This document shows, piece by piece, positions 2,441-8,400 of a stretch of 64,000 nucleotides of DNA. The stretch spans positions 35,278,001-35,342,000 of the forward strand of contig OZ024741.1 in NCBI GenBank assembly GCA_964016885.1, read 5' to 3'. Every line of letters begins with the position of its first letter. Positions within the stretch are counted from its first letter, which is position 1. Under the pieces are notes generated by a model. That model was not told the DNA's origin, ran no database searches, and worked only from the letters and a program-made list of their open reading frames with translations. This DNA is from Eledone cirrhosa (Eukaryota). A program made the translations under genes and the position numbers.

Positions 2441-5400
2441 GTAAGTTTTTATATATATACTAGCATTAAAGCCCGGCGTTGCTCGGGGTCATTAAGTTAC
2501 CAAAGTTAGGTTGCACCACCCATTTTATGGCAGCACTTTTTTGTCTGCCAGGCACTGGGTGAATGAATTGCAGACCTGGAAGCATGAGCTGCGCCAGCAG
2601 TGACAATTGTAGTTTCGCCTATGGATATTATCTCTGTGCCAAAAAGTGTTGAAATTTATTGTTTCACAGTACTTGCGCAACACGCGCGTAGATGATGCCA
2701 GCCGAACAACAGAGCTGCGATGGAGTTGTTCTGCATGGTTGTCTTTGTGTTTTCTAAATTTAAGACAGTAGGGAGGGTTGTGATGTGAGGGAGAGTTAGC
2801 TGTTGTTTCTAGCAGGTTTAGTGACCTCATCGAGGATATGTGTTTTCTAAATTTAAGACAGTAGGGAGTGGTGTAATATGGGGGAGAGTTAGCTGCTGTT
2901 TCTAGCAGGTTTAGTGACCTCATAGAAGATATGTTTTCTAAATTTAAGACAGTAGGGAGGGGTGTGATATGGGGGAGAGTTAGCTGCTGTTTCTAGCAGG
3001 TTTAGTAACCTCATAGAGGATATGTGTTTTCTAAATTTAAGACAGAAGGGAGTGGTGTGAACGGACAGTATCACCATCAAGCTTGGAAAGAGAAAGTAGC
3101 AGAAAGTATGAAGTTGTATAGATTTTGAATGGTAGTAGAAAGAGTTCAGCAGTTTAAATGAGAGAGAAAAATCGTAAAATATTGAGTTTTATCTATTTTT
3201 TGCGTAATTGTGGGTGAAATTGAAAAAATTATCTGCGTCAAGACGCAATCGAAACTATATCGACTACTGAATTGTAAATTTCAATTGAAGAAATTCTATA
3301 TCGTAGATTTCTATAACGAAGGAGCATGACCACACACTGAGCTTTATAGATTATGATACAGGGTGTCCCTCAAAAATATATACACATGTCATCAGCAGAT
3401 AACTCAAAGTGTGTATACGGTTTTTGGGACACCTGTATATATATATATATGTAAAAGGTAAACAGAAATAACAACACCATCAGTACAGGACGAAATATAT
3501 TAGGTTAACACTTGAAATAGCAGGAAGAGGTTCTTAACGTTTTGGACGCTAGTCCTTCATCAGAAGAAAGAATGAGAAATAAGATAGATTGAAGGGACGA
3601 GCGGGTTGGTATTGGAAAAAATGTCTTTATATATATATATAATGAAAATAGAATTAGAAGCTTTCACTGTATATTGACTACAGAAAATGGTTTAATATTA
3701 GGGCATATGTAAAGTCAAAGTTGATTAAGCCAATCCCAGTATTTTACTGGTACTTTATTTTACTCACTCGAAGGATGAAAGGCATAGTTGAACTTAGTGG
3801 GATTTGAACTCAGAATGTGGTTTTTAATAAAGACACAAGACCAATAATCTTTTAGGGAGCGGGGTTGGATAAGTAATAGACTGGTACTTTATTCTATCGA
3901 CACCAGAACGATGAAAGGCAAAGGTGACCTGGGCTGGATTTGAAACCAGAAGTTAGAGCATCAGAATGAAATACTGTAACGGTATTTCATTCATCACTTT
4001 ACCAATTCTGTCAATCTTCGAGGGTCAGCTGAAATGTTCATTGGCTGACCAAGATATTCTCATGGAATGACCAAATGTGGTTTTAATTTTCAATATAATC
4101 CCTGGAAAGAAATAATTGTTTCTACTTTTTGGCACACACACACACACACACACACACACACACACACACACACACACACACACACACACACACACACACA
4201 CACACACACACACACACACACACACACACACACACACACACACACACACACACACACACACACACACACATACACACACACATACACACACAGTAGGTTT
4301 GATTATACTGTTTATTTGTGTATTTTATCTATTCTTGCGCCTTCCTGTTGAATCACTTATATTGTATCGCCGTGTTGATACATGCATGCAAGCTAGCTCG
4401 AAATAGCTAGCCAGAAAATTAATGTAGCGATTAATTCTGTCACATATTGTTATTGTAAAATAAATATTGTCAACAACACAATTCTGGCATTATTCTTTTC
4501 ATCAAACACCCATCAAAGAATAACATTTATCTGCTACTTGTTATTTGTCTTTATCGTTTAAAAATGTATTCACAATGTATTTATGATTCAATTTACTGGT
4601 TTTCATTAGATTACATATTTTTGACAGTGTCTGGCCCTAATAGTTGTTCTAATGTTCAAAAGTGGCTCGCCAATGGAATAACCACTAAGCCTGGCGCATG
4701 GCTTAGTAATTAGAGCACTGGGCTTGCAATCGAAAGGTTGTGAGTTCAATTCTCGGACCGGGTGATGTGTTGTTTCCTTGAGCAAGACATTTTATTTCAC
4801 GTTGTTCCAGTTTACTCAGCTGTAGAAATGAGATGATAGGGACTGGGGTCCCTATCATTAAATCACCCAAGACACCCCCAACGAGATATACCTTGGAGGA
4901 GGCCAGCTAAACCTGCATAGGTGTGAGCTGTCACACACGTACACACCAATAGAATATGTTGCACACGCCTGATTTATAGGATGACACAATGTTGAACTCT
5001 ATTTTATCTCTCTTCCTTTCTCTTAGTTAACATTCCCGTTGGCTACCTGACAGCATTCTGGAACTTACCCCACATTACGTGGGTAGCAACCGATCCGACA
5101 CTTGCTGATAAATCTGTGTTTAATACTCTAATTCGAACAATGGGACCTTTTAATAAGGTCGGCATGTTTCTCGTGCAATTCTTCCGTATATTCAAGTGGA
5201 AGCGAGCTGGCATGTACAGTGGCACTTCAGGTGAGTTGATACAAACACACACACACACACACACACATACACAGACATACACATGTACAGTGGCACTTCA
5301 GGTGAGTTGATACAAACACACACACACACACACATACACAGACATACACATGTACAGTGGCACTTCAGGTGAGTTGATACAAACACACACACACACACAC

Positions 5401-8400
5401 ATACACAGACATACACATGTACAGTGGCACTTCAGGTAAGTTGATACAAACACACACACACACACACACACACACACACACACATACACAGACATACACA
5501 TGTACAGTGGCACTTCAGGTGAGTTGACACAAACACACATACACACACACACAGTCATACACACACACACACACACAGAGACATACACAGACATACACAT
5601 GTACAGTGACACTTCAGGTGAGTTGACACAAACACAGATACACACACACACAGACATACACACACATACACAGACATACACAGACATACACATGTACAGT
5701 GGCACTTCAGGTGAGTTGACACAAACACACACACACACACACATACACACACACACACACATACACAGACATACACATGTACAGTGGCACTTCAAGTGAG
5801 TTGACACAAACACACACACACACACACACACACATACACACACACACATACACACACACATACACACATACACAGACATACACATGTACAGTGGCACTTC
5901 AGGTGAGTTGACACAAACACACATACACACACACACACACACACACATACACAGACATACACAGACATACACACACACATACACAGACATACACATGTAC
6001 AGTGGCACTTCAGGTGAGTTGACACAAACACACATACACACACACACACACAGACACAGACATGTACACACACACACATACACACACATACATACACAAA
6101 CATACACACACACATACACACACATACACAGACATACACATGTACAGTGGCACTTCAGGTGAGTTGACACAAACACACATACACACACACACATACACAC
6201 ATACACACACACACATACACATACACAGACATACACATGTACAGTGGCACTTCAGGTGAGTTGACACAAACACACATACACACACACACACACATACACA
6301 CACACACACACACATACACAGACATACACATGTACAGTGGCACTTCAGGTGAGTTGACACAAACACACACACACACACATACACACACACACACACACAT
6401 ACACAGACATACACATGTACAGTGGCACTTCAAGTGAGTTGACACAAACACACATACACACACAAACACACATACACACACACACATACACACACACACA
6501 CACACACATACACACACACATACACAGACATACACATGTACAGTGGCACTTCAGGTGAGTTGACACAAACACACATACACACACACACACACACACATAC
6601 ACACACACATACACACACACATACACATACACACACATAGACAGACATACACACACATACACTCACACACACACACACATACACAGACATACACATGTAC
6701 AGTGGCACTTCAGGTGAGTTGACACAAACACACATACACACACATACACACACACACATACACACACACAGACATACACATGTACAGTGGCACTTCAAGT
6801 GAGTTGACACAAACACACATACACACACAAACACACATACACACACACACATACACACACACACACACAGACATACACATGTACAGTAACACCTCAGGTG
6901 AGTTGACATAAACACAAACATACACATACAGTGAAACATAGACACACACATACACACATACATACACATACACACACACACAGAGACATACACACACAGA
7001 GACATACACACACATGTACAACGGCACTTCAGGTGAGTTGATAAAAACACACATACAATGAAACATAGACACACACACAGACACACACACATACACACAC
7101 ACACATACACACACATCTACTGTGGCACTTCAGATGAGTTGACATAAACACACACATACACACACACACACACAGACAGACATACATACACAGACAGACA
7201 TACATACACACATGTACAGTGGCACTTCAGGTAAGTTGACAAAACACACACACACACACACACACATACACACATACACACATACACACACACATGTCAG
7301 TTAGTATACACACACACACACACACACACATACATGCACAGTGGAACTTCAGGTGAGTAAACATAAACACACACAGACATACACACACAGACACACATAT
7401 GTACACGAGCGCGTGCACGTTCATATACACACAGACACACATATGTACAAGAGCGCGCGCTCGGATACACACATACACACATACACACATGCCCATGAGC
7501 GTGCACACTTACACGCACACAGACACACATATGCACACATACGAACAGAAACATACGCGCACAATACAAACATACAAGCAACACATACATACACACACAC
7601 ACACACACACGCATACATACACACGTGCAAAATGGCACTTCAGGCCAGATAGCATAAAGACACACACACATGCCCACGCCCACCTAGAAAAGTATGCATA
7701 AACATACACACACGCACATAAGCTCACATGCACACATGCACACACACACACACACACAAACGCGCATACACACACATACACACACACAAGCAAACACATA
7801 CACATTGACTTCTTACTTTTCCAGGGTTTTGCTCTTTTGCTGGTGGTGGTGTACGCAAGCAATTCGAGGAGAACAATCTGACCGTCACAGAAGATATAAT
7901 GTTCATTGAAGAAACACTCACTGATTCAATTATGGATTTTCACCTAAAGAAACTGAGTCGAGATTCTAGAAGTAAGTGAGTGTTGAGCGTGAGGCATGAT
8001 GAAGGCCGAGTTAATGCAATTAGGGATTCTGGAATGGAGAACATTGGGGAGAGGTGGGACCGAATCTGGTTGCAGGACACTTGATGAAAATTGAGTTTGG
8101 TTCTTTTGTATTCGGACCTGGTATATATAGGTGTATATAAGAGAGAATGAGACTAAGTACTAACCAACACCAGTAAAGGAATTATCACAGCTAGCTTAAA
8201 TATGGAGCTGAAGTACATGAATGTAGGCCTACACATAGAACGCTGCTGAAATTCCAGCATTGATCTACGCTGATCTTTAAAATAGATGACACTTAAAGAA
8301 TAAAAAATGTATTTAATAACATGTATAATATTTTTAATTTTTACAAAAATATTGTGTTTCATAGCAATATTTTAATGTATATTTTAATATATATTTAAAA

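What the first reader, a model, noticed from the sequence alone, without database searches (positions are those of the whole stretch)
5211..7645. CRISPR-looking array made of about 22 copies of a real splice donor
Seen: the last ~20 nt of exon B plus the first ~15 nt of the intron (catgtacagtggcacttcag|gtgagttga.acaaac) repeat across nearly the whole intron, separated by variable CA-rich spacers. Copies decay away from the exon. Most keep CAG|GTGAGT, some become GTAAGT, a few CAA|GT. The second donor is 71 nt downstream (frameshift) and read-through stops at 5308-5310. Inference: a decoy 5' splice-site array that could titrate U1 or route transcripts to NMD. CA repeats are established hnRNP L binding sites that could silence the decoys.
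Basis: partly seen in the sequence, partly recalled or inferred. Interest (0 to 1): 0.75.

Follow-up and report, generated by a model that had tools for sequence, protein, structure and literature searches.

The report
Repeated splice donor in octopod receptor
The end of one exon of an octopus-type hormone-receptor gene, splice signal included, is copied about 22 times into the next intron, but the copies change as if unselected and the cell likely keeps using the first signal, as in similar repeats already known from human, lancelet and chicken genes.

Summary
The array is real: 22 copies of a 30-nt exon-end/donor core (5211-7362), plus a decayed 23rd, with CA-rich spacers, in an intron of an intact receptor guanylyl cyclase gene. 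The core occurs only here in the genome (18 of 18 hits), and contig depths of a same-species DNA run match the assembled copy numbers. The decoy reading is not supported. The GT is no better kept than the rest of the unit (2/44 vs 25/594; low power). A close relative has the array; two more distant ones lack it. A second intron of the same gene holds an independent exon-end minisatellite whose copies all lost the GT. Four transcript-like contigs of relatives join at the first donor, but none comes from a species shown to carry the array, so leakage here is untested. This is a new member of a known kind (human F7/CBS/6-16 VNTRs, lancelet 'mirages', chicken 'exon stuttering'); this scan also noted it in other genes of this genome and in other genomes. 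Likely origin: slippage between an 8-nt motif shared by exon and intron. Any leak to later donors would hit a premature stop.

The parts
5027..5230 (+). Exon B of a receptor guanylyl cyclase (NPR1-like); encodes part of the ANF_receptor domain
   Evidence: Pfam PF01094 E=3e-10; AG/GT ends; covered end to end by spliced contigs in 4 of 4 runs of relatives
5211..5240 (+). Copy 1 of the core: last 20 nt of exon B plus first 10 nt of the intron; holds the authentic donor after 5230
5282..7362 (+). Copies 2-22 of the core, separated by CA/CATA/CAGA-rich spacers (period 67-159 nt); pseudo-donors after 5301, 5368, 5435 ... 7352
5308..5310 (+). In-frame TGA met by read-through and by use of donor 3 or any later donor
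7624..7656 (+). Decayed 23rd copy, GT changed to GC
5211..5218 (+). 8-nt motif CATGTACA at the left edge of every unit; inferred microhomology of the founding duplication
   Evidence: exon and spacer sequence diverge just upstream of it; the same 8-mer lies at +24..+31 of the single-copy intron of organism C (loose end read by eye)
7825..7971 (+). Exon C; use of donor 2 would put a stop at about 7879-7881, some 90 nt before the next junction
2331..2440 (+). Exon A
2331..54509 (+). Host gene as far as mapped in the window: 22 exons, 991 codons, no stop; 895 of 896 aligned residues identical to P0002
18322..18750 (+). Second, unrelated minisatellite (period about 39-42 nt) copying the end of exon 18257-18338; none of the 7 downstream copies listed at 18364-18714 keeps GT

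Best explanation
This is a minisatellite whose first unit spans an exon/intron boundary, so each amplification copied the splice donor; the extra donors are likely silent, tolerated by-products and the first donor is likely the one used. Inferred origin: slipped-strand or unequal-crossover duplication between CATGTACA in the exon and the same motif in an already CA-rich intron start, then repeated amplification and homogenisation, with the CA spacers slipping in length. Inferred reason it is tolerated: the first donor is transcribed first and defined with exon B's acceptor (the 5'-to-3' priority shown for F7), and it alone has coding rather than CA-rich sequence upstream, whereas later copies have CA on both sides, a context that would favour hnRNP L-type repression. 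Minor leakage to donor 2 or 3 is possible and would give premature-stop transcripts predicted to be cleared by NMD.
For: Shown: locus-specific core (18 of 18 genome hits at up to 1 mismatch lie in this array). Real in reads: depth ratios of three core contigs to the exon contig in run X1 are 9.4, 2.7 and 1.9, against assembled 31-mer counts of 9, 3 and 2. No donor-specific constraint: GT 1/42 vs 21/588 elsewhere over 21 copies; 2/44 vs 25/594 over 22 copies, Fisher p=0.71; 3 of 14 distinct changes fall in the 9 donor columns of 29, p=0.57. 7 of the 14 changes are G>A, and 8 of the core's 9 G positions are hit, including -1 and +1, so GTAAGT copies fit the same bias as the damaging ones. Lineage-limited: multi-copy in 2 of 4 DNA runs (own species and organism B), single copy in organisms C and D. 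Recurrent: 2 of 21 donors and 0 of 21 acceptors of this gene have copies in the next intron; the second array kept no GT. Gene intact: 991 codons without stop; all 18 exon-B differences tested are synonymous. First donor used in 4 of 4 transcript-like contigs of relatives and in 2 of 2 database proteins (gene models). CA count 3 upstream of donor 1 vs 15-21 for the 22 others. Literature: PMC1557585, PMC3087553, PMC12954441.
Against: No RNA of the window's species or of organism B was seen. Organism D, which has both RNA-like and DNA runs, lacks the array, and no DNA of E, F or G was laid, so fixes the exon boundary but does not show silence of the copies. Contigs drop rare forms. The conservation test is weak: even 0 changes in 44 GT positions would have probability 0.15 under neutrality, and copies are not independent. 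The array has persisted since the A/B split (5 differences listed in the 204-nt exon). [quoted passage not shown] X1 may be the assembly's own sample, and contig depth is a rough measure.
Confidence: 0.8

Rival explanations
1. The array began as a by-product but now tunes receptor level: part of the splicing goes to donor 2 or 3, or the intron is retained through decoy pairing, giving NMD substrates, with copy number, CA length or hnRNP L level setting the leak.
For: All 21 alternative donors among the 22 copies give a premature stop; 17 of 21 downstream copies are consensus-strength; array kept in two species; proximal pseudo-sites are used in human 6-16 and CBS (PMC1557585 introduction); CA repeats near a 5' splice site mediate hnRNP L repression in mammals (PMC5959245).
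Against: No excess conservation of the donor; a weakened CAA|GT variant is present in three copies; absent in organisms C and D although the protein is nearly invariant; the sister array in the same gene lost all GTs. Premature stops are expected from any intronic extension and show no design.
Confidence: 0.12
2. The units act as recursive splice sites or 11-nt micro-exons (AG|11 nt|GT inside each core).
For: Each core holds an AG at its 8th-9th base and the AG|GT at the donor (sequence).
Against: No polypyrimidine tract: T fraction 0.15 and 0.25 before the two AGs vs mean 0.51 (minimum 0.35) for the gene's 22 real acceptors; the intron is only 2,594 nt; an 11-nt exon would shift the frame.
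Confidence: 0.03
3. Assembly artefact in a low-complexity region.
For: CA-rich sequence is hard to assemble; spacer lengths could be in error.
Against: Depth ratios match the assembled counts; copies carry distinct variants; a second species shows the same break and a multi-copy core.
Confidence: 0.02
4. The unit is a dispersed mobile element end (MITE or SINE) that happens to resemble the exon end.
For: The core start loosely recalls the transposon-like end near 10670 (resemblance recalled, not tested).
Against: Core found only in this array in 3.0 Gb; its exonic part encodes MYSGTSG, identical in both homologues.
Confidence: 0.01

Closest known systems
Human F7 intron 7 37-bp VNTR, with 6-16 (25 pseudo-sites), CBS intron 13 (15-20), LAMIN B2 (10-15) and PDGF intron 4 (16-18). 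PMC1557585; seen: abstract, synopsis, introduction (part 1 of 6) and 12 passages of results and discussion
   Same: First monomer spans the exon/intron boundary; identical donors reiterated in the intron; similar copy number.
   Different: Here the unit is compound (a fixed core of about 34 nt plus a slipping CA microsatellite spacer, period 67-159 nt), carries 20 exonic nt (F7: 4) and a near-consensus donor (F7's is weak). Donor use and polymorphism are untested here.
Lancelet 'mirage' minisatellites (Adh3, globins BflGb6 and BflGb9). PMC3087553; seen: 7 passages
   Same: Invertebrate tandem duplications of exon/intron boundaries; reported not to disturb regular splicing; concerted evolution that leaves out the cluster edge, as the distal copies here.
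   Different: Mirages occur at donors and acceptors; no CA-microsatellite spacer is described in the passages read.
Chicken 'exon stuttering' (236 introns in 115 genes). PMC12954441; seen: 12 passages
   Same: Local repeat expansion copies an exon edge with its splice site through the intron.
   Different: Concentrated on avian dot chromosomes and shown to be length-polymorphic; neither applies or was testable here.
hnRNP L repression of cryptic 5' splice sites by CA repeats. PMC5959245; seen: 12 passages
   Same: CA clusters on both sides of each pseudo-donor.
   Different: Human and mouse data; no binding or hnRNP L orthologue was tested here. CA tracts are common background in this gene (4 other introns have CA tracts, 2 have TG tracts).

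Membership tests
Exon/intron-boundary minisatellite (F7-type, 'mirage', exon stuttering) | First unit spans an authentic exon/intron boundary | tested here: met
Exon/intron-boundary minisatellite (F7-type, 'mirage', exon stuttering) | Head-to-tail copies in the adjacent intron that reiterate the splice signal | tested here: met
   22 copies, 21 with GT
Exon/intron-boundary minisatellite (F7-type, 'mirage', exon stuttering) | Local origin, not a dispersed repeat | tested here: met
   18 of 18 genome hits in the array
Exon/intron-boundary minisatellite (F7-type, 'mirage', exon stuttering) | Concerted evolution with a diverged cluster edge | tested here: met
   first 17 copies within 2/30 of consensus, distal copies most diverged; different spacer in organism B
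Exon/intron-boundary minisatellite (F7-type, 'mirage', exon stuttering) | Splicing only or mainly at the most upstream donor | tested here: inconclusive
   4 of 4 contigs of relatives use it, but none is from a species shown to have the array
Exon/intron-boundary minisatellite (F7-type, 'mirage', exon stuttering) | Copy-number polymorphism between individuals | not tested
   only one same-species DNA run was laid; the listed runs of other individuals are reduced-representation libraries
Selected regulatory decoy 5' splice sites (concept recalled, no paper read) | Donor motif conserved above its surroundings | tested here: not met
   2/44 vs 25/594, p=0.71; low power
Selected regulatory decoy 5' splice sites (concept recalled, no paper read) | Conserved across related species with the same gene | tested here: not met
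   present in A and B, not in C and D
Selected regulatory decoy 5' splice sites (concept recalled, no paper read) | Measurable effect on intron retention, isoforms or mRNA level | not testable with these tools
   no RNA run of this species listed
Recursive splice site or micro-exon (features recalled) | Polypyrimidine tract before the AG, in a long intron | tested here: not met
   T fraction 0.15 and 0.25 vs 0.51; intron 2,594 nt

The most novel reading that the evidence does not exclude
A young, lineage-specific array of strong donors embedded in CA repeats works as an hnRNP L-gated, length-tunable leak into NMD that sets the dose of a very conserved receptor guanylyl cyclase; its rise went along with a shift from the weak donor seen in organisms C and D to the consensus donor in A and B. 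It would be a natural test of how 22 identical donors are ranked in an invertebrate.
Probability: 0.07. Interest if true: 0.65.

Novelty: new member of a known kind. Interest (0 to 1): 0.17.

Why it matters
Little on its own: the architecture is described in humans, lancelets and chickens. Its value is as a clean example. Species with and without the array exist, a plausible 8-nt founding microhomology survives in an outgroup, and the same gene holds a second array that lost its GTs, so it could serve as a minigene test of first-donor priority versus CA/hnRNP L silencing in a mollusc. It is also a trap for gene annotation and read mapping.

Tried and rejected
No RNA holder of this species was listed; this is no evidence on expression. 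My first 22-exon model showed 12 stops because one acceptor was set 2 nt off (28071 for 28069); corrected, it has none. The idea that the decayed 23rd copy preserves the ancestral intron start was dropped: by eye it matches organism D's first 13 intron bases no better than copy 1 does (8 of 13 each). A second contig of X4 that touches 5007-5024 and 5239-5256 was set aside as a likely match from another locus. The repeat finder was swamped by CA runs and not used. A paper search for octopus + intron + tandem repeat + splice site + guanylate cyclase gave 0 papers; these are the only searches, so 'not in print' is weakly tested. The primary papers on CBS, 6-16 and Adh3 were not read; they are cited through PMC1557585 and PMC3087553. 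No supplements were read. Transposon origin, artefact and recursive-splicing readings are rejected above.

Full report
Observation. A scan of both strands with the 30-nt core 5211-5240 at up to 9 mismatches finds 22 copies, all on the plus strand between 5211 and 7362, 67-159 nt apart. A further decayed copy lies at about 7624-7656. Of the 22, 16 read CAG|GTGAGT, 2 CAG|GTAAGT, 3 CAA|GTGAGT and 1 CAG|ATGAGT; the 23rd reads CAG|GC. Spacers are CA, CATA and CAGA runs; most end in the same short motif. Divergence from copy 1 rises with distance (rho 0.73, p=2e-4) but against the consensus the trend is weak (rho 0.35, p=0.12): a homogeneous block of 17 copies is followed by a decayed distal edge.

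Host gene. Exon B matches ANF_receptor (E=3e-10) and later exons match a kinase-like domain and Guanylate_cyc. The two database hits, both 100% identical over exon B, are named atrial natriuretic peptide receptor 1-like from Octopus sinensis and Argonauta hians, so the window is likely from an octopod (inference). A 22-exon model from 2331 to 54509 gives 991 codons without a stop, 895 of 896 aligned residues identical to P0002 and 621 of 626 to P0001. All 18 exon-B differences that I tested from the relatives' contigs are synonymous third positions. The gene is intact and strongly constrained.

Is the array real? A 25-nt core pattern has 18 hits at up to 1 mismatch in the 3.0-Gb genome, all in this array, and 0 for the reversed control. 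In the same-species DNA run X1 the exon contig ends at 5240, where a repeated 31-mer starting at 5211 would break it, and three core contigs have depths of 45.7, 13 and 9 against 4.84. These ratios, 9.4, 2.7 and 1.9, match the assembled 31-mer counts of 9, 3 and 2 (my assignment of contigs to variants rests on their length and mismatch count). X1 may be the assembly's own sample and contig depth is a rough measure, but collapse or false expansion is unlikely.

Relatives' DNA (3 runs of other species). Organism B (5 differences listed in exon B) shows the same break near 5236-5240 and a separate core contig at 3.6 times the depth, followed by a different CA-rich spacer: it has the array too, homogenised on its own. 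In organisms C and D one contig runs through the donor and on for 99 and 45 further bases, which excludes identical copies of a junction-spanning 31-mer there; diverged copies further in are not excluded. Their donors are weaker (G|GTTTGG and G|GTCTGG) and their intron starts are already CA-rich. In C the 8-mer CATGTACA lies at +24 to +31 of the intron (read by eye). This 8-mer is the left edge of every unit, where exon and spacer sequence diverge, and occurs only 3 times in the window outside the 20 cores that carry it intact. A duplication between the exonic and an intronic copy of this motif explains the unit boundary. This is inference; the motif in C could instead be the relic of a lost copy.

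Relatives' RNA-like contigs. In 4 of 4 runs (organisms D, E, F, G; three guessed to be RNA, one labelled DNA? but spliced) a single contig of 3.4-3.7 kb covers 5026-5231, and its loose ends are exon A before and exon C behind. This fixes 5230 as the authentic donor.

Selection on the pseudo-donors. Over 21 downstream copies GT changed at 1 of 42 positions vs 21 of 588 elsewhere, and the 9-nt donor at 6 of 189 vs 12 of 420 (one dimorphic column left out; p=0.80). With the 23rd copy: 2 of 44 vs 25 of 594, p=0.71; of 14 distinct changes 3 fall in the donor's 9 of 29 columns, p=0.57. Seven of the 14 are G>A, and they hit -1, +1 and +3 alike, so the 'improved' GTAAGT copies fit a mutational bias. 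Power is low: zero GT changes would still have p=0.15.

An internal control. Of the gene's 21 donors, 2 have copies in the next intron; of 21 acceptors tested, none. The second array (18322-18750, period about 39-42 nt) repeats the end of exon 18257-18338, and none of its 7 listed downstream copies keeps GT. Junction-copying minisatellites thus arise repeatedly in this repeat-rich genome (133 tandem-repeat rows in the window) with or without a surviving donor.

How it most likely works. Shown: anatomy, intact gene, authentic first donor, premature stops for all later donors (donor 2: frameshift, stop about 90 nt before the end of exon C; donors 3-22: stop at 5308-5310). Inferred: the first donor wins because it comes first and pairs with exon B's strong acceptor, as shown experimentally for F7 (PMC1557585). 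Context may help: donor 1 has 3 CA dinucleotides in the upstream 50 nt scored against 15-21 for the others, and CA clusters upstream of or across a 5' splice site mark hnRNP L-repressed sites in mammals (PMC5959245). That would silence the copies rather than make them U1 sinks; 21 sites on one nascent transcript could hardly titrate an abundant snRNP (own knowledge). Leakage is possible: 17 of 21 downstream copies score at or above the real donor on a matrix from the gene's 21 other donors, and two pseudo-sites are used in human 6-16 and CBS. Internal AGs lack pyrimidine tracts, so recursive or micro-exon use is unlikely.

Comparison and novelty. The architecture is the one described for F7, 6-16, CBS, LAMIN B2 and PDGF, lancelet mirages and chicken exon stuttering. 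Four of six features of that kind were met, one was inconclusive and one was not tested. Earlier notes of this scan list 67 findings with these words in at least 28 genomes and several in this genome; they are unchecked AI notes, gave me the leads to the lancelet and chicken papers, and are not counted as support. What is particular here is modest: a CA-microsatellite spacer, a candidate founding microhomology, presence and absence among relatives, and a sister array without GT. One search for this gene with these terms found no paper.

Verdict. Real, ordinary, new member of a known kind. Neutral tolerated minisatellite 0.80; regulated leak or decoy 0.12; other readings 0.06 together. Interest 0.17.

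Noticed in passing
window 18322-18750: Second minisatellite (about 39-42 nt) copying the end of exon 18257-18338 of the same gene; all listed downstream copies lack GT.
   Followed up: yes
window 5231-5236; runs X4, X5, X10: The donor is consensus-strength in the two array-bearing species and weak in the two without; direction of change unknown.
   Followed up: partly
window 5022; run X4: Organism B has a 14-nt insertion in the pyrimidine tract before exon B.
   Followed up: no
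window 18257-20518: P0002 lacks about 95 residues (end of the transmembrane exon and exons 19430-19526 and 20348-20518) that P0001 and the window encode; annotation gap or alternative splicing.
   Followed up: no
window 30346-31080: 52-bp minisatellite, 14 copies at 98%, ending about 27 nt before the pyrimidine-poor acceptor at 31107; holds no exon sequence by the tests.
   Followed up: partly
window 28067-28071: Two AGs 2 nt apart at an acceptor; only the upstream one keeps the frame.
   Followed up: partly
window 10665-10850: Short stretch that recalls the end of a Tc1/pogo-type MITE (resemblance recalled, untested).
   Followed up: no
window 60335-63535, minus strand: Three adjacent open frames that look like protease, reverse transcriptase, RNase H and integrase of an LTR retrotransposon, in separate frames (named from recalled motifs).
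   Followed up: no
window 35604-36401 (-), 55760-56749 (+), 37362-38462 (+), 32339-32878 (+), 40928-41314 (+): Open frames that look like fragments of Penelope/GIY-YIG, hAT-type transposase and LINE elements inside the gene's long introns and downstream (recalled resemblance).
   Followed up: no
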